Assembly (NCBI GenBank): GCA_041659045.1
Contig: JBAZZB010000002.1
Coordinates: forward strand, 159,855-223,854
Origin: Patescibacteria group bacterium
GTDB taxonomy: Bacteria > Patescibacteriota > Patescibacteriia > SG8-24 > DYFX01
DNA: 64,000 nt
Direction: 5' to 3'
Shown here: positions 8,279 through 39,228 of the stretch, one piece after another
Layout of the letters: every line of letters begins with the position of its first letter
How positions within the stretch are numbered: the stretch's first letter is position 1
Notes under the pieces: model-generated
The model's database searches: none
Told to the model about the DNA's origin: nothing
The model's input: only the letters and a program-made list of their open reading frames with translations
Position numbers and translations under genes: made by a program

Positions 8279-8671
8279 TTGCGTGCCCATAAAATCGGCG
8301 CGAGGAGGACTGTGGTGAACGACTGCAACGTGAGAGATTCTGATGTGTGTGTCACGCATACGAACTGGGACGCTGTTCCACCCCGTTCGCTCGAAATCTC
8401 AAAAGACCGCATGCGAGAAATCGATGCCGAGCTCAGTGCCCTCGCGAGGCTCCACGCCTACGCTCGCGAACAGGCACGTCTTGCCAAGCGTTTCTGCCGT
8501 ATTGCCGAGGTTATTCTGGAACAATGTGGCTGCGATCACATTTTCTACCGGTACAGAGATCAGCACGTGCTGTTCATCTGGCCGATGGGGCCGCCTCTCG
8601 AGATGTCACTTGAACGATTTCTCAGGATCTTCGAACGTCCGTCAATCTCTCCTCTCCGCGTGGTCAAGTAA
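8279..8671 (+). CDS. Hypothetical protein (uncertain)
   Basis: 130-aa ORF in the divergent intergenic region between ruvA and the kinase-like gene. Composition is plausible but there is no clear RBS or domain. Confidence 0.3.
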   Translation: MRAHKIGARRTVVNDCNVRDSDVCVTHTNWDAVPPRSLEISKDRMREIDAELSALARLHAYAREQARLAKRFCRIAEVILEQCGCDHIFYRYRDQHVLFIWPMGPPLEMSLERFLRIFERPSISPLRVVK

Positions 8672-8716
8672 CCCGCGGACTTTTTTTTACCAAAGCGCCG
8701 TGCTACGCTCCACGCA

Positions 8717-9674
8717 TATGCAGGAAAAACCTGACAAGCGCGTACGTCTCTCGCCCTTTGAACGGCCTGAGATGAGAATTGAAGATAAGAAGCGTGTCCT
8801 AAACGCTTTTACCGAAACTTTCTTGGACAAGTCGAACCAGACCCGTCTAGGAGCTGGTACGACCGCTGAAGTCATGGCGAATAACCTTGACCCGGCTTTG
8901 AGCAAATTCGTTTCAAAGTTTGCGTACGCGGATCGCCCGCACCACGGCATTTTGAACGATCTTGAAACCGAATTCGAACAGCAGTTGAATGCCTGGCGCA
9001 TGACAGAAGGTTGGAAAACGAAATATCCGAAAGCGCCGCGCGTACGCGTACCGGAGCCGATCGGCTACGTGCGTGAAGGTGACAACGAGGTGCTTGTCAT
9101 GGAGCGCGTGCGCGGAAAAACCCTCTGGCGTCTTTTGATGGAAAACTATTTGCGCACGGAAGGCATTGCCAGCGGACGGCTTACTGAGCGCGATGCTGAG
9201 GATCTTGCTCAACACCCTGACGACTCGTACGTTGAAGACTTTTTGATCCGTCGCACGGACATGGCGCAGTACTACCAGCATGGTCGCCACAAGGAAATCG
9301 AAAAAACCATGTGGGATAACTGCTATCGTAAGCAGTCCGCTATTGTGACGGAAGACCAGTTCAAAGCCATCCAAGCGTTTGCGGCACTTTCCAAGCGTGA
9401 GAAGTTCTGGCATCGCGATTTTCATCCGAAGAACGTTATGATCTCCGATAACGGAGATGTCTTCGTTATTGATTTCGGACTCTCGACGCAAGGTATGGAT
9501 GAGAAAGACGCCATGCACATCGAAAACTTCGGTCAGGAAATCATGATGACCGCCGGATACGAGGGTTTGATCGAGCAGCTGCGCGGATCCGGCAACGGCG
9601 ACTCAACCGATCCAAAGCGTCAACGCGTGCCCATGTCTACTTGGCACAAGCCCGATCTTGACAAAAAGGCTTAA
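8717..9674 (+). CDS. Protein-kinase-like fold protein (eukaryotic-type kinase / lipopolysaccharide-kinase-like)
   Basis: Catalytic-loop motif HRDFHPKNVMI followed by VIDFGLS, which resemble HRDxKPxN and DFG. Start at MQEKPDKR. Confidence 0.6.
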
Positions 9675-10821: not shown

Positions 10822-13800
10822 TCAGTTCTTAGCGATACCAATCTTCAGCGTCTGATCCCCCGCCTCGACTTCCCCTGTCGCGAGTGCGCCGTCGAGGCCT
10901 TCTTTCATTGCATCAGCTTTGACGTCGGTGAGGGCGTCCGTGCCGTGCGCGCCCATGACCTCTTTCCAGAAGCCGTCGAGTCCGTCGACAAGGAGCGTGA
11001 TGCGATCCTGGATCGTGAGCTTCGCTTCTTTGCGGAGCGCGTTCACGGCGCGCGTCAGTTCGCGAGCGGCGCCTTCACGCTTGAGTTCGGGGGTGAGCTC
11101 CGTGTCGAGCTCGACTTCAAACTCGTCGTCTTTCTCGTATGTCGCTTTCTTAACGTTCACTTCCTCAGCAACGATCTCGAGCATCCAATCTTCGAACGTC
11201 CATTCTGCTTCGATCTCCAGACCGGCAAGCACTTGGCGAACATTGATGCCAGCCTTCGCGCGCTTCTCGAGCCCCATCGAGCAAGCTTGACGCACACGCT
11301 TCATCTGCGATGTCAGATTCTCATCAATTGATCCGACCTGCGGCCATTCGTCCAAATGCACCGACTCCTTCTCTCCACCGACTTCGCGGTACAGTCCTTC
11401 CGCGATGTGTGGCGTGAAAGGTGCAAGGAGTTTGGAGACGGTCAGAAGCGTGTGACCGAGCGTCGCGATGGCAGAAGCTTTTTCTTCGTCGGTTCCGTTC
11501 TTGAAACGATCGCGGCTGCGGCGGACGTACCAGGTTGAAAGGTCATTGGTGAAGTCAGCAATTGCGCGACCAGCCGTAACGACGTCGAACTTCTCCAGGC
11601 AATCGGTGACGGTTTTGGTGACGCTCGAAAGTTCGGAGAGTACCCAAGCGTCGAGGGTATGTGCCGGCTTCGGCGCCTCAACAACAGCTTTCGCATTCTC
11701 GCCAGCATACATTTTCCAGAACGATTGCACGTTCCAAAGAATCAAGAACAGTTTCTTGATGACGCCGTCGACCTCCTTCTCGTCGAAGCGCTTGGCTTCG
11801 CCGGGTTGGTTCACGGTGAAAAGATGGAAACGTACCGCGTCAGCGCCGTACTTGGCGAACATGTCCCACGGATTCACCACGTTACCTTTCGATTTCGACA
11901 TCTTCTGGCCTTTGGAGTCCAAAAGATGACCGAGGCAGATGACGTTCTTGTAGGCCGGTTCGCGGCCGAGAAGCGTCGAAACGGCGAGGAGCGTGTAAAA
12001 CCAACCACGCGTCTGGTCGATGGCTTCGGAAATAAAGTCGGCAGGATACGCTTCGCCAGAATCGACTTTTTCCTTGTTCTCAAACGGATAGTGCCACTGC
12101 GCGAACGGCATAGCACCCGAGTCGAACCAAACGTCCATGACTTCAGGCACGCGCTTCATTTCTTTGCCGCATTCGCACGCAATCGTGACAGCGTCGATGA
12201 ACGGCTTGTGCACGTCGAGAGCGCCCTTGTGATCGAACGGCCAGTTCGGAACGGTAAACTCGCGGCCACTGCCCGTTTCCGGATAGCGCGCGCCAAAGTT
12301 TTCGAGCACGCCGGCATTCCACGTACCGCTCAGTGCGGCGTCGAGCACCCAAAGCGGATCGCCGTGCGAGACGATGGCGATCTTCTTGCCTTCATGCGTG
12401 CGGTCGTATTCAAGCACCGCCGCAACCATGCGGGCGCGGACGTCTTCGAGGCACTCCCCTCCTTCGACTGCCTTCGTCATTTTTTCGTCGAGCGATGCGA
12501 ACTGCTTGTTGTACTCCTCTTCGCTCTTACCGTTGAACACGCCAACATTGATTTCGCGCAGACGCGGGTCGAATTTCAACTCGGCACCGGTGATCTCGGC
12601 GAGGAGCTGCGCGGTTTGCGTCGTGCGCTTCAAATCGGAGGCGTAAATAATATCAACGCCGTCTTCTTTCATTCTCTCAGCCGTCGCACGCACCGCCGCT
12701 TCACCTTCCGGCGTCAGGTGGACTTCAAGATCCGTTCGTTCCGGCCAGCACGAGATGTAACCGTTCTGGTTCGACATCGCGCGACCATGACGCACCATGA
12801 AGAAACGGTTCTTCCGGAAACGCTTTTCGTTCATTTCAGCGAGCGAGCCGACGACATGCGTTTTACCGCATTCGCACTCCCAAATCGGCAGCGGCGTGCC
12901 CCAATAGCGGTCGCGAGAGATCGCCCAATCCTTGATACCGCGCAGCCATTCGCCGAAGCGGCCGTCCTTGATGTGCGCCGGTTCCCAGTTGATCTTTTCG
13001 TTGTTAGCGACAAGCTCCTTCTGCAGCTTGCTCATGGCGATGAACCACGAATCTTTCGGGTAATAGAGGAGCGGCGTCGAGCAGCGCCAGCAGAACGGAT
13101 AATCGTGCGTGTATTTTTCTTCCTTGTAGAGGAGTCCGCGATCGGAAAGATCCTTCACGATGTCAGCATCAGTATCTTTCACGAAACGTCCGGCCCACGG
13201 CGTGACTTCCGGAATGAAGGCGCCGTCCAAACCAACCGTCATCAAAACAGGGAAATCGTGTTCCTTGATGACGTTCATGTCGTCCTCACCAAACGGAGCC
13301 ATGTGCACGATGCCGGAGCCGTCGGTCGTCGAAACGAACGAACCCGCCACGACCCAGTGTGCTGGCTTTTCAAGCGGCAAGAAAGAATAGAGCGGTTCGT
13401 ATTGCTGTCCGACGAGATCGGAACCCTTCAACTCTTCGACAATCTCGGCATCTTCAAGCAAGCCAACGCGAGCTTTCGCGACAAAATAGAAATCTCCGCC
13501 CTTCTTGGCTTTGACGTATTCAAGATCGGCACCGACGGCGAGCGCGGTGTTCGAAGGGAGCGTCCATGGCGTCGTCGTCCAGGCGAGGAAATAGGTATTC
13601 GCTTCGTCCTTCACCTTGAAACGGACGTAGACAGAAGTCTCCGTCACTTCCTTATATCCCTGCGCGACTTCGTGCGACGAAAGCGCTGTGCCGCAGCGCG
13701 CGCAGTACGGGACGATCTTGTAGCCTTTGTAGAGAAGATTCTTTTTCTCAACTTCGGCGACGATATTCCAAACGGATTCGATGAACTCGTTCTTGTAGGT

Positions 13801-14232
13801 GACGTAGGGGTGCTCCAAATCGACCCAGTAGCCCATGCGTTTCGTCATCTGCACCCACTCGTCGAGATACTTCCAGACGGACTCGCGGCACTTCTCGTTA
13901 AACTTTTCGACGCCGTAGGCTTCGACGTCTTTCTTATTCTTCAACCCAAGCTGTTTCTCGACTTCGAGTTCGACTGGCAAGCCGTGCGTATCCCAGCCGG
14001 CTTTGCGATCGACATGGTAGCCCTGCATCGTCTTGAAACGCGGGATCAAATCCTTGAAGGCGCGGGCCAAAACATGGTGAATACCAGGCTTGCCGTTGGC
14101 GGTCGGGGGGCCTTCGAAAAAGACAAAAGAGCCTTTTGGGGCTGGTTTTTCAAGCGTTTTCTTGAAAATTCCCTTTTCTTCCCATTCGGCGAGGAGTTGT
14201 TCTTCAAGTTGTGGGAAATTGGGGGCAGCCAT
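10822..14232 (-). CDS. ileS: Isoleucine--tRNA ligase with an inserted histidine-phosphatase (phosphoglycerate-mutase-like) domain
   Basis: Class I aaRS motifs are present: GPPTANGKPGIHH, GWDTHGLP and KMSKSKGN. Residues ~471-660 lie between WECECGK and IACECGK. They carry RHGxxxxN (MVRHGRAMSN), SDLKRTTQTA and VSHGDPL, the hallmarks of a branch-1 histidine phosphatase. Confidence 0.9.
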   Translation of the reverse strand: MAAPNFPQLEEQLLAEWEEKGIFKKTLEKPAPKGSFVFFEGPPTANGKPGIHHVLARAFKDLIPRFKTMQGYHVDRKAGWDTHGLPVELEVEKQLGLKNKKDVEAYGVEKFNEKCRESVWKYLDEWVQMTKRMGYWVDLEHPYVTYKNEFIESVWNIVAEVEKKNLLYKGYKIVPYCARCGTALSSHEVAQGYKEVTETSVYVRFKVKDEANTYFLAWTTTPWTLPSNTALAVGADLEYVKAKKGGDFYFVAKARVGLLEDAEIVEELKGSDLVGQQYEPLYSFLPLEKPAHWVVAGSFVSTTDGSGIVHMAPFGEDDMNVIKEHDFPVLMTVGLDGAFIPEVTPWAGRFVKDTDADIVKDLSDRGLLYKEEKYTHDYPFCWRCSTPLLYYPKDSWFIAMSKLQKELVANNEKINWEPAHIKDGRFGEWLRGIKDWAISRDRYWGTPLPIWECECGKTHVVGSLAEMNEKRFRKNRFFMVRHGRAMSNQNGYISCWPERTDLEVHLTPEGEAAVRATAERMKEDGVDIIYASDLKRTTQTAQLLAEITGAELKFDPRLREINVGVFNGKSEEEYNKQFASLDEKMTKAVEGGECLEDVRARMVAAVLEYDRTHEGKKIAIVSHGDPLWVLDAALSGTWNAGVLENFGARYPETGSGREFTVPNWPFDHKGALDVHKPFIDAVTIACECGKEMKRVPEVMDVWFDSGAMPFAQWHYPFENKEKVDSGEAYPADFISEAIDQTRGWFYTLLAVSTLLGREPAYKNVICLGHLLDSKGQKMSKSKGNVVNPWDMFAKYGADAVRFHLFTVNQPGEAKRFDEKEVDGVIKKLFLILWNVQSFWKMYAGENAKAVVEAPKPAHTLDAWVLSELSSVTKTVTDCLEKFDVVTAGRAIADFTNDLSTWYVRRSRDRFKNGTDEEKASAIATLGHTLLTVSKLLAPFTPHIAEGLYREVGGEKESVHLDEWPQVGSIDENLTSQMKRVRQACSMGLEKRAKAGINVRQVLAGLEIEAEWTFEDWMLEIVAEEVNVKKATYEKDDEFEVELDTELTPELKREGAARELTRAVNALRKEAKLTIQDRITLLVDGLDGFWKEVMGAHGTDALTDVKADAMKEGLDGALATGEVEAGDQTLKIGIAKN

Positions 14233-14316: not shown

Positions 14317-14763
14317 ATGATCTACCTCGGTTCCGACCACGCCGGGTTTGGCCTTAAACAGGCCGTTATCCGCCATCTGGATGCTTCAGGAAAAGAATAT
14401 ACGGACCTCGGCAACACCGAGCTCAATCCGACCGATGATTATCCGGATTACGCATTTGCCGTTGGCGAGGCGGTTGTTCAAAACCCCGGGTCGTTCGGCG
14501 TGCTGGTCTGCGGATCGGCGCAGGGCGTCTGCATTGCCGCCAACAAGGTGAAGGGTATCCGCGCCGTCACAGCCCTCTCTCACGAAGAGGCGATCAAAAC
14601 GCGCGAGCACAACAACGCCAATATCGTATGCCTCTCCGGCTGGAACACGGGTGAAGATGATGCTTTCGCGATCGTCGACACCTTCCTTGCCACGCCATTC
14701 ACCGACGATGGTCGTCACGCGCGTCGCATTGAAAAAATCGCCGCTTACGAAAACCATGGTTGA
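14317..14763 (+). CDS. rpiB: Ribose-5-phosphate isomerase B
   Basis: MIYLGSDHAGFGLK...VLVCGSAQGVCIAANK matches the RpiB/LacAB family. Confidence 0.9.
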   Translation: MIYLGSDHAGFGLKQAVIRHLDASGKEYTDLGNTELNPTDDYPDYAFAVGEAVVQNPGSFGVLVCGSAQGVCIAANKVKGIRAVTALSHEEAIKTREHNNANIVCLSGWNTGEDDAFAIVDTFLATPFTDDGRHARRIEKIAAYENHG

Positions 14764-15397
14764 GATCATTCCGGCCATCTTGGCCAAAGACGAAAAAGAA
14801 TTCCGCCGAAAAATCGATTCCATCACCGATCTCTGCGAAACGGTGCAGATCGATGTCATGGACGGAGTCTTTGTCGACAACATCACCTGGGCCGACCCGA
14901 AACGCATCGATCTCATGCGCCTGCCGATGGCGTACGAAGTGCACTTAATGGTAAAAGACCCGCTCGCCAGCCTCGACGCCTGGTCGGTGGCCGGATGCAT
15001 GCGCGCAATCGTGCACGCGGAGGCGGTCGACGATGCTGCTGAAGTACTTCGCCAGATCAAACTCTACGGTATGGAGGCCGGGCTCTCAATTAACCCGGAA
15101 ACATCGATCGCTTCTATTGAAGACGCCATCTCTGAAGCGGATGTTGTGCAAGTCATGGGAGTGCATCCGGGTTGGATGGGTCAGGAATTCCAAACCGTCG
15201 CGATTGAGAAGGTTCGCAAGCTTCGCGAGAAGTTCCCCGAACTCGTGATCGAAGTCGATGGCGGTGTTGCTGTTGGTACCGCACGCGAACTGGCGGAAGC
15301 GGGTGTGGATCGTCTCGTTTCCGGCAGCGCTGTCTTCAATTCCGGCGCTCCTGCCAAGTCGATTGAGGCGCTGCGCGCGGACGCTGAACTTGAGTAG
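14757..15397 (+). CDS. rpe: Ribulose-phosphate 3-epimerase
   Basis: IIPAILAKD...VDVMDG...MGVHPGWMGQEF...EVDGGV. Start at MVEII, overlapping the rpiB stop. Confidence 0.85.
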
Positions 15398-17412: not shown

Positions 17413-17646
17413 CTAGGACGCGTGACCGAACCGCTTCAACGCCGTTTCGTATGCCTCGCTGCCCTTGTATGCGATGTCGCAGCGCTGGGTTCCGTAACTT
17501 CCCTGCTCGCCGTCGTACGCGATCGTGATCTCTTCGCGCGGCATACTTTTGCGCACCAGATAATGCGGCTCGGCGACTTCTCCCAACTTGCCGGTCTTGG
17601 TGTTGATGACGCGGGTTCCGACATCCAAATGCACGTCGTCACGCAT
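17413..17646 (-). CDS. Hypothetical small protein (77 aa)
   Basis: Strong RBS: CAGGAGG 6 nt upstream of the ATG on the minus strand. Confidence 0.5.
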   Translation of the reverse strand: MRDDVHLDVGTRVINTKTGKLGEVAEPHYLVRKSMPREEITIAYDGEQGSYGTQRCDIAYKGSEAYETALKRFGHAS

Positions 17647-17695
17647 GAAAGGCCTCCTGAGAAAACCTGCGATTGTGCTATACTTTTCTTACCAT

Positions 17696-18562
17696 ATGTC
17701 ACACCAAAGCGACAAGCGCATCAAAGAACTGGAACTCATCGCCAACACGCTCCGACGGCACGTGATTGAAATGGTCTCGCACGCCGGCAGCGGCCACCAA
17801 GGTGGACCGCTTGGCATGGCTGATGTTTTTGCTGTGCTCTATTTTCACGCGCTCAATCACGATCCGAAGAACCCGGAATGGGAAGATCGCGATCGTCTGA
17901 TTCTTTCGAACGGCCACACCTGCCCAATCCGCTACGCCGCCATGGCCGAAGCGGGCTACTTCCCTGTCGATGAACTCAAGACGCTCCGACGACTCGGCAC
18001 GCGTCTTCAAGGACACCCGGAACGCCTCAAGCTGCCAGGCTCAGAGACGACCTCGGGACCGCTCGGGGCTGGGCTTGCGCAAGCCGCCGGGCTCGCCTAC
18101 GCCGCCAAGATGGACAAGAAAAAGTGGCGCGTGTTTTGCCAGACATCCGACGGTGAGCACGAAGCCGGTCTCCACTGGGAAGCGATGCTTTTCGCCGGCA
18201 AGTATCGCCTCGATAATCTCGTCTGCATCGTCGACCGCAACAACATTCAAATCGACGGGCGCACCGAGGACATCATGCCGCTTGAGCCGCTCCGCGATAA
18301 ATACGAGGCGTTCAACTGGCACGTTGTTGAATGCAACGGCAACGACGTCGAAGCGGTCGTGGCGGCATTCGAAGCCACGAAGTCGCTCTTCGATAAACCG
18401 ATCTGCATTTTGACCCACAATATCCCGGGCAAAGGCGTCTCCTACATGGAAAACAACTTCCTGTGGCACAGCCAACCCTTTAAGCCCGGTGAAGCGGAAG
18501 CTGCGTACGCCGAACTCGACGCCGCAAAAAAGCAGCTGAAAGCCGAACTTGCCAAGCTATGA
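17696..18562 (+). CDS. Transketolase, N-terminal (thiamine-diphosphate-binding) subunit
   Basis: SGHQGGPLGMADVF, GHPE and GPLGAGL are TPP-binding motifs of a split transketolase. Confidence 0.85.
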   Translation: MSHQSDKRIKELELIANTLRRHVIEMVSHAGSGHQGGPLGMADVFAVLYFHALNHDPKNPEWEDRDRLILSNGHTCPIRYAAMAEAGYFPVDELKTLRRLGTRLQGHPERLKLPGSETTSGPLGAGLAQAAGLAYAAKMDKKKWRVFCQTSDGEHEAGLHWEAMLFAGKYRLDNLVCIVDRNNIQIDGRTEDIMPLEPLRDKYEAFNWHVVECNGNDVEAVVAAFEATKSLFDKPICILTHNIPGKGVSYMENNFLWHSQPFKPGEAEAAYAELDAAKKQLKAELAKL

Positions 18563-35822: not shown

Positions 35823-35948
<126 letters not shown>

Positions 35949-36127
35949 AACGTTATCACTATGATATCGTATCGCCTTGATTTGTCCCGACACGTGTCGG
36001 GAGGACAACAAAGAATACAGAATGATGACGTTTCCGACTCCGAACGCTTGCGCGCTCGGACGGATTTTTGGGTAGAAAGTACTAGTCCTTCTTACGAACT
36101 TGCGTTCGCTCGAAGCACTCGTGCTTC

Positions 36128-39228
<3,101 letters not shown>

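What the first reader, a model, noticed from the sequence alone, without database searches (positions are those of the whole stretch)
12253..12822. Histidine-phosphatase (phosphoglycerate-mutase-like) domain inserted inside isoleucyl-tRNA synthetase
The ileS ORF (1136 aa) is a bona fide class I IleRS, carrying GIHH, WDTHGLP and KMSKSKGN. Its zinc-binding knuckle is split by about 190 residues, aa ~471-660, between WECECGK and IACECGK. That segment carries every hallmark of a branch-1 histidine phosphatase: RHGxxxxN (MVRHGRAMSN), SDLKRTTQTA, REINVGVFNG and VSHGDPL. It is not an intein: there is no Cys/Ser+1, no HN C-terminus and no endonuclease motifs. The reading frame is continuous. I do not know of a canonical IleRS carrying a phosphatase domain. 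The domain could act on the aminoacyl-adenylate or (p)ppGpp/Ap4A-type by-products, or be a moonlighting or regulatory module. It is placed in the region that contacts the tRNA acceptor end.
Basis: partly seen in the sequence, partly recalled or inferred. Interest (0 to 1): 0.85.

Follow-up and report, generated by a model that had tools for sequence, protein, structure and literature searches.

The report
Phosphatase domain nested inside isoleucyl-tRNA synthetase
The enzyme that loads isoleucine onto tRNA in this tiny-genome (Patescibacteria) bacterium carries a complete, apparently active phosphatase enzyme spliced into one of its surface loops; related bacteria keep the same phosphatase as a separate gene glued to the front of the synthetase gene, so the two are a conserved but unexplained pair.

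Summary
ORF 10822-14232 (-) is a 1136-aa type-2 IleRS (TIGR00392, 906 bits). Residues ~472-660 (nt 12253-12819) are a complete branch-1 histidine phosphatase (PF00300, E=8e-36; AF2 pLDDT 95). It sits at the tip of the CP3 zinc knuckle and replaces a ~19-residue loop.

It is not an artefact or an intein. At least 117 protein clusters (47-95% identity, Patescibacteria) share the architecture, and R481, H482, R536, E593 and H623 are invariant in 118/118.

Three new points:
1. The same phosphatase exists as a free ~190-aa gene immediately upstream of an insert-free ileS in 5/5 contexts examined (ATGA overlap). Free and embedded states were mutually exclusive.
2. Other IleRSs carry the domain at two further sites or in tandem. 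A ValRS fragment carries four copies. ArgRS and TsaC fusions exist.
3. A few relatives lost the insert precisely.

I read it as the covalent form of a conserved phosphatase-IleRS module with an active phosphomonoesterase. The substrate is unknown, and a role in Ile-AMP chemistry is unlikely.

Caution: fusions are promiscuous in this phylum. I found no publication describing this. Novelty: new variant of a known kind. Interest 0.65.

The parts
10822..14232 (-). ileS ORF, 1136 aa: type-2 isoleucyl-tRNA synthetase with an embedded phosphatase (deposited as MFA5854271.1)
14074..14085 (-). Class I signature motif, aa 50-53 'GIHH': the non-canonical G/AXHH form of HxGH
   Evidence: G50 in 113/118, H52 in 114/118, H53 in 118/118; PMC10485003 read
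13096..13659 (-). CP1 editing domain (about aa 192-379). The TTTPWTLP and GxGxVHxAxxxG..D editing motifs are conserved.
   Evidence: match to the isolated editing domain 1WK8, query 192-379; invariant W218-L225, H310, D318
12862..12882 (-). First half of the CP3 zinc knuckle, WECECGK (aa 451-457; C453, C455)
   Evidence: Cys in 107 and 100 of 118; for the CP3 zinc motif in T. thermophilus IleRS
12253..12819 (-). Embedded branch-1 histidine phosphatase domain, aa ~472-660
12784..12792 (-). RHG motif (R481, nucleophile H482, G483)
   Evidence: R 118/118, H 118/118, G 111/118
12364..12366 (-). Second catalytic histidine, H623, in VSHGDPLW. The other core residues are R536 (nt 12625-12627), E560 (nt 12553-12555) and E593 (nt 12454-12456).
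   Evidence: H623 118/118, R536 118/118, E593 118/118, E560 109 E + 9 D
12163..12183 (-). Second half of the CP3 zinc knuckle, IACECGK (aa 684-690; C686, C688)
   Evidence: Cys in 107 and 107 of 118
11890..11904 (-). KMSKS loop (aa 777-781)
   Evidence: K 118/118, M 115/118, S 118/118, K 118/118, S 113/118
11233..11652 (-). Anticodon-binding helical domain (aa 861-1000)
   Evidence: PF08264, E=4.4e-30
10828..11199 (-). Type-2 IleRS C-terminal domain (DUF5915, aa 1012-1135)
   Evidence: PF19302, E=1e-15

Best explanation
This is a bifunctional protein. It is the covalent form of a phosphatase-IleRS module that is conserved in Patescibacteria.

Shown:
- The IleRS part is a complete type-2 enzyme, with the signature motif, KMSKS, editing site and anticodon domains conserved.
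- Into the tip of its CP3 zinc knuckle is set a ~190-residue PhoE/PspA-like histidine phosphatase. Its whole catalytic core (R481, H482, R536, E560, H623, plus E593) is under strict purifying selection.
- Related genomes encode the orthologous phosphatase as a separate gene directly upstream of an insert-free ileS, with overlapping stop and start codons. A given locus has one state or the other.

Inferred:
- The four Cys residues clamp the base of the loop, so the domain's two ends meet and both enzymes fold normally. The AF2 model is confident through both junctions.
- The phosphatase works in the standard way for its family. H482 attacks a terminal phosphate to form a phospho-histidine, E560 protonates the leaving group, and water releases phosphate.
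- It does not take part in Ile-AMP formation or transfer. Those steps involve no phosphomonoester, and some lineages have lost the insert.
- It is kept in 1:1 physical association with IleRS (and in some lineages ValRS, ArgRS or TsaC) because its substrate is linked to tRNA charging.

My preferred but weakly supported guess for the substrate is a phosphorylated nucleotide or a phosphate-blocked tRNA end.
For: Identity of the two parts:
- Family hits.
- Insertion point, with a ~19-aa native loop replaced. It lies in CP3, which carries a Zn motif in T. thermophilus IleRS.

Fold:
- AF2 of the insert alone: pLDDT 95.1, pTM 0.92.
- Foldseek top hits are PspA 4IJ6, GpgP 4QIH, PhoE 1H2E and HFP 9MMH, at TM ~0.7-0.76.
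- Full-length AF2: pLDDT 90.1, pTM 0.80, with the junction blocks at 93-95.

Selection:
- R481, H482, R536, E593 and H623 are invariant in 118/118 relatives at 47-95% identity. E560 is E or D in 118/118.
- IleRS motifs are equally conserved.

Module:
- Free ~190-aa orthologues share ~30 conserved positions with the insert. They are as similar to inserts as inserts are to each other (32% mean identity).
- The free gene lies directly upstream of an insert-free ileS in 5/5 independent contexts: L006, L015, L017/18, L019/20, L021/22.
- L017 shows an ATGA overlap. L021 shows 2- and 4-nt spacers in argS-phos-ileS.
- The states are mutually exclusive: 10 insert-bearing loci plus the window have no upstream copy, and the 5 loci with a free copy have no insert.

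Recurrence:
- Two further insertion sites in IleRS, plus tandem copies.
- A ValRS fragment with four copies, an ArgRS C-terminal fusion, and TsaC fusions in four clusters.
- 92 of 104 long hits in the best 150 of 1.84 billion representatives are IleRS.
Against: - No substrate is identified. No NCBIfam equivalog cut-off is met (CobC 80.5 against 162.9; PspA 69 against 350; dPGM 37 against 81.7; SixA 31.5 against 74.5).
- Aminoacylation produces no phosphomonoester apart from AMP.
- I found no paper reporting a histidine phosphatase that acts on tRNA ends.
- Fusions are promiscuous in this phylum. TsaC is most often fused to an O6-methylguanine methyltransferase domain, and also to TruB, 2H phosphoesterase, a glycosylase, NUDIX and GNAT. 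Fusion alone is therefore weak evidence of shared function.
- Conserved adjacency to ileS need not mean shared function. From my own knowledge, ribF-ileS-lspA in E. coli is conserved without a known functional link.
- Three relatives have lost the insert precisely, and two of them show no phosphatase gene on their 9-kb contigs. IleRS therefore does not need it.
- The ArgRS fusion rests on one cluster and could be a frameshift or sequencing error between genes 2 nt apart.
- I could not obtain model coordinates, so the distance and orientation of the phosphatase pocket relative to the synthetic site, the editing site and the tRNA path are unknown.
Confidence: 0.45

Rival explanations
1. Independent housekeeping phosphatase. 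The domain is an ordinary broad-specificity small-molecule phosphatase (sugar-phosphate, phosphoserine or similar) with no mechanistic link to translation. It merely shares an operon with ileS. In streamlined Patescibacterial genomes it became fused or inserted because that guarantees constitutive co-expression and saves regulatory DNA. CP3 and the other sites are simply permissive surface loops.
For: - Closest structures are generic small-molecule phosphatases.
- JGI names the free proteins 'broad specificity phosphatase PhoE'.
- TsaC in the same phylum is fused to many unrelated enzymes.
- The insert has been lost without visible replacement in L013 and L014.
- Insert columns are less conserved than core columns (0.53 against 0.69).
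Against: - Internal insertion into an essential enzyme at three different sites, plus a ValRS, is much harder to achieve than an end-to-end fusion. It suggests selection for physical association.
- Every partner found among the closest relatives is an ATP-dependent tRNA-charging or tRNA-modification enzyme. None is a metabolic enzyme.
- Adjacency with ileS holds in 5/5 contexts across IleRS cores only 45-62% identical to their nearest insert-bearing relatives.
Confidence: 0.35
2. Regulatory sensor. The domain binds (and slowly turns over) a phosphorylated metabolite and thereby tunes IleRS activity to the cell's metabolic state through the rigid CP3 connection.
For: - The full-length model predicts rigid, confidently placed junctions and not a flexible tether.
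- CP3 connects CP2 to the second half of the catalytic fold (PMC7191050).
- From my own knowledge, histidine-phosphatase domains serve regulatory roles elsewhere (PFK-2/FBPase-2, TIGAR, SixA).
Against: - The same domain works from three different sites and as a free protein. That is hard to reconcile with one allosteric path.
- Full conservation of the catalytic acid and nucleophile argues for turnover and not mere binding.
Confidence: 0.08
3. Product removal. The domain hydrolyses a by-product of adenylate-forming reactions (PPi or AMP) next to the enzymes that make it. This pulls activation forward in organisms with poor pyrophosphatase capacity.
For: All partners (IleRS, ValRS, ArgRS, TsaC) use ATP and release PPi and/or AMP (reaction chemistry from established knowledge).
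Against: - From my own knowledge of the family, branch-1 histidine phosphatases are not known pyrophosphatases.
- Local hydrolysis cannot change the bulk PPi that drives reversal.
- Destroying AMP would be wasteful in organisms that depend on nucleotide salvage.
- The presence or absence of ppa in these genomes was not tested.
Confidence: 0.07
4. Intein, other selfish insertion, or assembly chimera.
For: It is an in-frame insertion in a conserved site of an essential gene. Multiple sites and tandem copies are reminiscent of mobile elements.
Against: - No Hint, intein or homing-endonuclease Pfam hit.
- The entire insert is one complete phosphatase fold with no room for a splicing domain.
- Catalytic residues are under purifying selection.
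- The architecture is reproduced on many independent contigs and assemblies.
- Composition is the same as the host gene.
Confidence: 0.01

Closest known systems
Type-2 isoleucyl-tRNA synthetase (IleRS2), e.g. Priestia megaterium IleRS2 (PDB 8C8U-8C8W) and Thermus thermophilus IleRS (1ILE/1JZQ)
   Same: - Full-length collinear homology outside the insert (E=3e-263 and 2e-246).
- Same domain order, with CP1 editing domain, CP3 zinc knuckle, KMSKS, anticodon domain and type-2 C-terminal domain.
- The G/AXHH signature variant described for part of IleRS2.
   Different: The ~19-residue CP3 loop is replaced by a ~190-residue enzyme domain plus linkers. Neither of the two IleRS evolution/structure papers that I searched by keyword contains the words 'phosphatase' or 'Patescibacteria'.
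Small branch-1 histidine phosphatases: PspA phosphoserine phosphatase (4IJ5/4IJ6), GpgP Rv2419c (4PZ9/4QIH), PhoE (1H2E), riboflavin-pathway HFP (9MMH)
   Same: - Same fold (TM 0.70-0.76).
- Same catalytic Arg-His ... Arg ... Glu ... His constellation.
- Similar size (~190-210 aa).
   Different: - Only 21-28% identity.
- No equivalog cut-off is met.
- Here the domain is embedded in, or encoded directly upstream of, an aminoacyl-tRNA synthetase, and its substrate is unknown.
NCBIfam NF040702 'isoleucine--tRNA ligase, N-acetyltransferase domain-containing' (ileS_w_GNAT)
   Same: Another curated case of an IleRS that carries an extra enzyme domain. It shows that IleRS tolerates such additions (listed).
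   Different: - The extra domain is different (GNAT, not a phosphatase).
- The window protein scores 307 bits against a cut-off of 1999, so it is not a member.
- I did not determine the position of the GNAT domain or the taxonomy of that family.
Bifunctional RNase H / acid phosphatase (NCBIfam NF005567, PRK07238; Rv2228c/SCO2299 type)
   Same: A histidine-phosphatase (CobC-like) domain fused to a nucleic-acid enzyme. It is among the best NCBIfam matches for the insert and for the free proteins (70-89 bits). As far as I know, the reason for that coupling is also unexplained.
   Different: It is an end-to-end fusion and not a nested insertion. The partner is different. The score is below the cut-off of 326.
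Inteins
   Same: In-frame insertion inside a conserved region of an essential gene.
   Different: No Hint fold and no splicing residues. The insert is a conserved, catalytically intact metabolic-type enzyme, also found as a free gene.

Membership tests
Isoleucyl-tRNA synthetase (TIGR00392 equivalog) | Whole-protein score above the curated cut-off | tested here: met
   905.6 bits against a cut-off of 621.4, in two stretches split by the insert
Isoleucyl-tRNA synthetase (TIGR00392 equivalog) | Class I catalytic motifs (HxGH-type signature and KMSKS) | tested here: met
   KMSKS at aa 777-781, conserved in 113-118 of 118. The signature is the swapped G-I-H-H form, which is functional in IleRS2 according to PMC10485003.
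Isoleucyl-tRNA synthetase (TIGR00392 equivalog) | CP1 editing domain with conserved Thr-rich and His/Asp motifs | tested here: met
   Match to the isolated editing domain 1WK8 (query 192-379). W218-TTTPWTL-225, H310 and D318 are invariant in 66 sequences.
Isoleucyl-tRNA synthetase (TIGR00392 equivalog) | Aminoacylation of tRNA-Ile | not testable with these tools
   Needs a biochemical assay
Type-2 IleRS (IleRS2) | Type-2 C-terminal domain in place of the C-terminal zinc-binding domain of IleRS1, with closest relatives among IleRS2 | tested here: met
   PF19302 DUF5915 at aa 1012-1135. Best PDB hits are IleRS2 (8C8W, 1ILE) at 824-879 bits, against 327-329 bits for the IleRS1 entries 8C9F and 1FFY.
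Histidine phosphatase superfamily, branch 1 (PF00300) | Score above the Pfam gathering threshold | tested here: met
   123.9 bits in the full protein and 128.2 bits for the insert alone, against a cut-off of 21.7
Histidine phosphatase superfamily, branch 1 (PF00300) | Catalytic core: RHG nucleophile motif, second Arg, acidic proton donor, second His | tested here: met
   R481, H482, R536 and H623 in 118/118. E560 is E in 109 and D in 9.
Histidine phosphatase superfamily, branch 1 (PF00300) | Alpha/beta fold of the family | tested here: met
   AF2 pLDDT 95.1, pTM 0.92. 290 PDB matches at E<=0.001, and all 50 listed are family members.
Histidine phosphatase superfamily, branch 1 (PF00300) | Phosphomonoesterase activity | not testable with these tools
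   Needs an enzyme assay with an H482A control
Cofactor-dependent phosphoglycerate mutase (TIGR01258 / dPGM equivalogs) | Score above the curated cut-off | tested here: not met
   TIGR01258 37.4 bits against 81.7. NF038349 73.8 against 225. GpmB NF002901 71.7 against 261. The domain is ~190 aa, against a model length of 245 for TIGR01258, and true mutases rank below phosphatases in the fold search.
Alpha-ribazole phosphatase CobC (TIGR03162) | Score above the curated cut-off | tested here: not met
   80.5 bits against 162.9
PspA-type phosphoserine phosphatase (NF045917) | Score above the curated cut-off | tested here: not met
   69.3 bits against 350, although PspA is the top structural neighbour
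Phosphohistidine phosphatase SixA (TIGR00249) | Score above the curated cut-off | tested here: not met
   31.5 bits against 74.5
Intein | Hint splicing domain, with a nucleophile at the N-terminal junction and His-Asn plus a nucleophile at the C-terminal junction | tested here: not met
   No intein, Hint or LAGLIDADG Pfam hit at E<=0.01. The insert is fully explained by one phosphatase fold that equals the free protein. The junction sequences (...EKRFRKN|RFF... and ...EFTVPNWPFDHKGAL|DVHKP...) lack splicing residues.
IleRS with GNAT domain (NF040702) | Score above the curated cut-off | tested here: not met
   307.2 bits against 1999

The most novel reading that the evidence does not exclude
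The phosphatase is a dedicated accessory activity of class Ia synthetases in Patescibacteria that acts on a translation substrate. One example would be removing a blocking terminal phosphate or pyrophosphate from the tRNA 3' end (damage, or toxin-installed modification) so that the tRNA can be charged. Another would be acting on some other phosphorylated tRNA or nucleotide species. That would make it a new kind of synthetase-linked tRNA repair or licensing step, encoded either in trans (an upstream, translationally coupled gene) or in cis (nested in CP3 or two other sites).
Probability: 0.15. Interest if true: 0.9.

Novelty: new variant of a known kind. Interest (0 to 1): 0.65.

Why it matters
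Aminoacyl-tRNA synthetases are among the most conserved enzymes known, and new catalytic modules in bacterial ones are rare. Here a whole branch of the Patescibacteria (ultra-small, mostly uncultured, host-dependent bacteria) keeps an apparently active phosphatase physically or genetically welded to IleRS. It does so in several independent ways: an operon with overlapping codons, three insertion sites, tandem copies, and fusions to ValRS, ArgRS and TsaC.

This gives a clean, testable case:
- The same activity can be studied in trans and in cis.
- Natural insert-loss variants exist as controls.
- A single H482A mutation should separate the two functions.

If the substrate turns out to be tRNA-linked, it would reveal an unknown step in tRNA charging or repair. 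If it is an unrelated metabolite, the case documents how far genome streamlining can drive nesting of unrelated enzymes inside an essential protein.

There are practical consequences too:
- The insert makes NCBI name these proteins only 'class I tRNA ligase family protein'.
- At least one free phosphatase has been named 'isoleucyl-tRNA synthetase'.
- The domain could be mistaken for a phosphoglycerate mutase in metabolic reconstructions.

Tried and rejected
1. Scanning reference genomes with the insert-only profile failed, because no stretch was conserved enough.
2. L011 (Phycicoccus) has a free histidine phosphatase 2.4 kb upstream of an ordinary IleRS2. It is not adjacent, scores only 83 bits against the profile, and such phosphatases are common in actinobacteria. 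I treat it as chance.
3. The unannotated 187-aa ORF beside the insert-free ileS of L014 is not a phosphatase (BLASTP E=3.7; no HMM hit).
4. Polarity of evolution (operon first or insert first) could not be settled. On a rough neighbour-joining tree of core columns, the upstream-gene and embedded states interleave. The Fitch root set is ambiguous, and the Clostridiales outgroup nests inside the tree, so the tree is not reliable for rooting.
5. Geometry could not be measured. The structure tool returns confidence and secondary structure but no coordinates. I therefore could not measure how far the phosphatase pocket lies from the synthetic site, the editing site or the tRNA path.
7. Seven of the eight literature searches, on IleRS/tRNA synthetase plus histidine phosphatase, phosphoglycerate mutase, Patescibacteria/CPR, CP3, and tRNA cyclic phosphate, found no description of this architecture and no histidine phosphatase acting on tRNA ends.
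8. Source names for the multi-copy proteins were not available, so their taxonomy beyond 'metagenome' is unknown.
9. The 'Baltobacteraceae' and 'Eisenbacteria' labels on close relatives probably reflect binning of short contigs. The window's own record and a 1.17-Mb relative are labelled Patescibacteria.
Full report
**1. Observation**

The window holds one uninterrupted 1136-aa ORF on the minus strand, 10822..14232.

- It passes NCBI's curated IleRS equivalog (TIGR00392, 905.6 bits against a cut-off of 621.4).
- Pfam finds tRNA-synt_1 (split in two), Anticodon_1, the type-2 C-terminal domain DUF5915, and His_Phos_1 at aa 478-636 (E=8.2e-36).
Translated alone, they score E=4.1e-37 against PF00300.
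- All quoted motifs are present at the positions given.
- Composition of the insert does not differ from the rest of the gene.

**2. Where the insert sits**

- Against Priestia megaterium IleRS2 (8C8W), query 8-461 aligns with chain 12-466 and query 671-1045 with chain 485-862. A native loop of about 19 residues has been replaced by about 210.
- The loop is flanked by W-E-C453-E-C455 and A-C686-E-C688. These four Cys residues are kept in 100-107 of 118 relatives.
- In the Candida albicans IleRS paper this region is the CP3 subdomain. That paper states that the T. thermophilus enzyme has a zinc-binding motif there, whereas the C. albicans and S. aureus enzymes do not (PMC7191050).
The yeast IleRS-tRNA complex paper names CP3 only once, in its domain list.

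**3. What the insert is**

- Sequence search of the PDB gives phosphoserine phosphatase PspA (4IJ5, E=2e-11), glucosyl-3-phosphoglycerate phosphatase Rv2419c, and PhoE.
- An AlphaFold2 model of the insert with a 28-sequence alignment is very confident (pLDDT 95.1, pTM 0.92).
- Foldseek returns the same small phosphatases plus the riboflavin-pathway HFP at TM 0.70-0.76, ahead of the true phosphoglycerate mutases.
- No specific NCBIfam equivalog is reached (CobC 80.5 against 162.9; PspA 69 against 350; dPGM 37 against 81.7; SixA 31.5 against 74.5).

It is therefore a member of the superfamily with unassigned specificity. It is not a mutase.

**4. Not an artefact, not an intein, and under selection**

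- A search of 5.8 billion proteins returned 120 best hits. Of these, 117 (47-95% identity, 1103-1206 aa) have the IleRS domains plus PF00300. Where named, they are mostly called Patescibacteria, Parcubacteria, Uhrbacteria, Nealsonbacteria, Komeilibacteria or Pacebacteria.
- Three hits (P0071, P0117, P0119; 953-960 aa) have an 18-20-residue loop instead of the insert.
- In the 118 insert-bearing sequences, R481, H482, R536, E593 and H623 are invariant. E560 is E (109) or D (9), and N488 is N in 101. IleRS's KMSKS and editing motifs are equally conserved.
- No intein or endonuclease family is hit. The insert equals one complete phosphatase fold.
- The exact window protein is deposited as MFA5854271.1, 'class I tRNA ligase family protein [Patescibacteria group bacterium]', on a 320-kb contig. 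A relative at >=90% identity (WKZ28855.1) lies on a 1.17-Mb contig.

**5. The key result: a free-gene form**

I searched a profile of the insert against 1.84 billion representative proteins. It found 1252 proteins at E<=1e-30. The best 150 are a mix of IleRS fusions, 44 free proteins of ~187-260 aa, and multi-copy proteins.

- Free proteins are as similar to the embedded domains (mean 32% identity, maximum 54%) as the embedded domains are to each other (32%).
- The two forms share about 30 conserved positions beyond the universal catalytic core: N475, L506, G510, D527, S532, T540, the D555-x-R-L-R-E560 block, G564, G568, R601, K616, and P626 within a mostly shared H-G-D-P-L-W block.
- The free family is large (479 hits) and, where named, comes from Parcubacteria, Paceibacterota or Pacebacteria.

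In every independent context I could read, the free gene lies directly upstream of, and on the same strand as, an insert-free ileS:

| Locus | Layout |
|---|---|
| L017/L018 | Stop and start overlap as ATGA |
| L019/L020 | thrS - phosphatase - ileS, same 4-bp overlap by coordinates |
| L021/L022 | argS - phosphatase - ileS, with 2- and 4-nt spacers |
| L015 | ileS N-terminus follows the phosphatase and runs to the contig end |
| L006 (Candidatus Staskawiczbacteria) | Phosphatase followed by insert-free ileS |

An HMM scan of six-frame translations shows that the two states are mutually exclusive. Ten insert-bearing loci and the window have no upstream copy, and the five independent loci with a free copy have no insert. 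The embedded domain is therefore the covalent version of a conserved two-gene module.

**6. Recurrence**

Among the long hits, 92 of 104 are IleRS once the phosphatase domains are masked. Twenty representatives carry two copies and one carries four. Landmark motifs and tblastn on L016 define three insertion sites:

| Site | Position | Examples |
|---|---|---|
| 1 | CP3 knuckle, as in the window; sometimes in tandem | P0123 (tandem) |
| 2 | Between DVWFDSG and DQTRGWF, query aa ~711-731 | P0132, P0125, L016 |
| 3 | After KMSKS and before the anticodon domain, query aa ~844-848 | P0122, P0132, P0156, P0201, L016 |

Other partners also occur:

- **ValRS.** P0121 is a ValRS N-terminal part followed by four copies from residue 423. 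It is truncated at the contig end.
- **ArgRS.** P0181 is an ArgRS with a C-terminal copy. The argS-phosphatase adjacency readily explains it, but it is a single cluster and could be an error.
- **TsaC.** P0190 and three further clusters at 52-65% identity are TsaC (threonylcarbamoyl-AMP synthase) with a C-terminal copy.

Every partner is an ATP-dependent enzyme of tRNA charging or tRNA modification.

**7. Counter-evidence that tempers the inference**

- In the same phylum, TsaC is most often fused to an O6-methylguanine methyltransferase domain. It is also fused to TruB, 2H phosphoesterase, a DNA glycosylase, NUDIX and GNAT. Promiscuous fusion onto essential translation genes is a habit of these genomes.
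- The insert-free proteins P0071/P0119 and P0117 fall at two separate places inside the insert-bearing tree.
- L014, which encodes P0119, even shares the window's rpe-rpiB/ileS synteny. Yet neither L013 nor L014 shows a phosphatase gene on its 9-kb contig. The insert can therefore be lost, and IleRS does not depend on it.
- Aminoacylation chemistry offers no phosphomonoester except AMP.
- I found no report of a histidine phosphatase acting on tRNA ends.

**8. Structure of the whole protein**

The full-length model (66-sequence alignment) has pLDDT 90.1 and pTM 0.80. Every 10-residue block from 451 to 690 averages at least 86, and the blocks around both junctions average 93-95. This predicts a rigidly packed insertion and not a flexible tether.

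**9. Interpretation**

Shown:
- a complete IleRS2;
- a complete, selectively maintained phosphatase nested in the CP3 zinc knuckle;
- equivalence with an upstream, translationally coupled free gene;
- further insertion sites and partners;
- occasional precise loss.

Inferred:
- The Cys knuckle clamps the base of the loop so that both enzymes fold.
- The phosphatase runs the standard phospho-histidine mechanism (H482 as nucleophile, E560 as general acid) on a terminal phosphate.
- It does not take part in Ile-AMP chemistry.
- The association is selected because the substrate is linked to tRNA charging.

| Reading | Weight |
|---|---|
| Functionally coupled module | ~0.45 |
| Unrelated housekeeping phosphatase co-expressed with ileS | ~0.35 |
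| Regulatory sensor | ~0.08 |
| PPi/AMP removal | ~0.07 |
| Intein or artefact | ~0.01 |

The specific idea that it clears a phosphate-blocked tRNA end is attractive but has no direct support (~0.15).

**10. Comparison with what is known, and novelty**

- The core is an ordinary IleRS2. The insert is an ordinary small histidine phosphatase.
- NCBIfam already curates an IleRS with a GNAT domain (NF040702) and an RNase H/acid-phosphatase fusion (NF005567). These are loose precedents, and the window protein is a member of neither.
- The sequences are public but generically named. At least one free phosphatase has inherited the name 'isoleucyl-tRNA synthetase' (P0426).
- Seven of my eight full-text searches were aimed at finding such a description. 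None of them, nor keyword searches within the two specialised IleRS evolution papers, turned up the architecture, the operon or the extra sites.
- I rate it a new variant of a known kind.
- Interest is 0.65. An aaRS specialist would be surprised, and the system is unusually testable, but the function is still open and a mundane explanation remains likely.

**11. Side note on the signature motif**

'GIHH' is not the canonical HIGH motif. It is the swapped G/AXHH form, which Brkic et al. showed raises mupirocin Ki by up to ~1000-fold in IleRS2 (PMC10485003). It is shared by 113-114 of the 118 relatives.

Noticed in passing
window 14074-14085 (-), aa 50-53: The class I signature is G-I-H-H, the swapped G/AXHH variant of HxGH. 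PMC10485003 links this variant experimentally to mupirocin hyper-resistance in IleRS2. G50 and H52 are present in 113 and 114 of 118 insert-bearing relatives, so the whole clade is predicted to be hyper-resistant.
   Followed up: partly
window 35830-39223 (-): The 23S rRNA match spans 3095 nt against a 2925-nt model, which suggests about 170 nt of extra sequence. 5S is adjacent. No 16S rRNA gene is found anywhere in the 64-kb window, so the rRNA genes appear unlinked.
   Followed up: no
P0279-P0392, relatives of the TsaC-phosphatase fusion P0190: In Patescibacteria the t6A enzyme TsaC is most often fused to an O6-methylguanine-DNA methyltransferase domain (PF01035). It is also fused to TruB, 2H/CPDase phosphoesterase, a methylpurine glycosylase, NUDIX and GNAT. 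This is a striking habit of fusing small enzymes onto translation genes.
   Followed up: partly
P0121 (1161 aa, metagenome contig of 3.9 kb): A valyl-tRNA synthetase N-terminal part (aa 1-417) is followed by four tandem histidine-phosphatase domains (423-595, 693-881, 882-1057, 1064-1157). The protein runs to the contig end, so the rest of the ValRS was not seen.
   Followed up: partly
L016 10001-14260 (1.06-Mb contig ERZ25074184:contig_3) and L010 (Peribacteria): These IleRSs carry two phosphatase domains. In L016 they sit at two sites different from the window's site (query aa ~711-731 and ~844-848). In L010 there are two copies in or near the CP3 site. The organism of L016 was not identified.
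   Followed up: partly
L019 7591-10418: In this genome, ileS downstream of the free phosphatase is called as two ORFs (757 aa plus 189 aa, the latter carrying DUF5915) that overlap by 16 nt. This is either a real split or a frameshift.
   Followed up: no
P0426; MFA5854271.1 and WKZ28855.1: There are annotation side-effects. NCBI names the fused enzymes only 'class I tRNA ligase family protein', and JGI names a free 197-aa phosphatase 'isoleucyl-tRNA synthetase'. Two close relatives on short contigs are labelled Baltobacteraceae and one Eisenbacteria, probably through binning errors.
   Followed up: partly
window 14317-15397 and 17588-18562 (+); L014 442-1525: rpiB, rpe and a transketolase N-terminal-half gene lie divergently upstream of ileS. 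The rpe-rpiB/ileS arrangement is conserved in L014, whose IleRS lacks the insert.
   Followed up: partly
window 8343-9674 (+): A 443-aa ORF has a kinase-like C-terminal half (APH, Pkinase and ABC1 hits at aa ~232-389). Its ~230-residue Ser/Cys-rich N-terminal half has no family hit.
   Followed up: no
L011 2349-3092 and 5522-8848 (Phycicoccus sp.): A free histidine phosphatase lies 2.4 kb upstream of an ordinary actinobacterial IleRS2. It scores only 83 bits against the insert profile and is not adjacent, so this is probably coincidence.
   Followed up: partly
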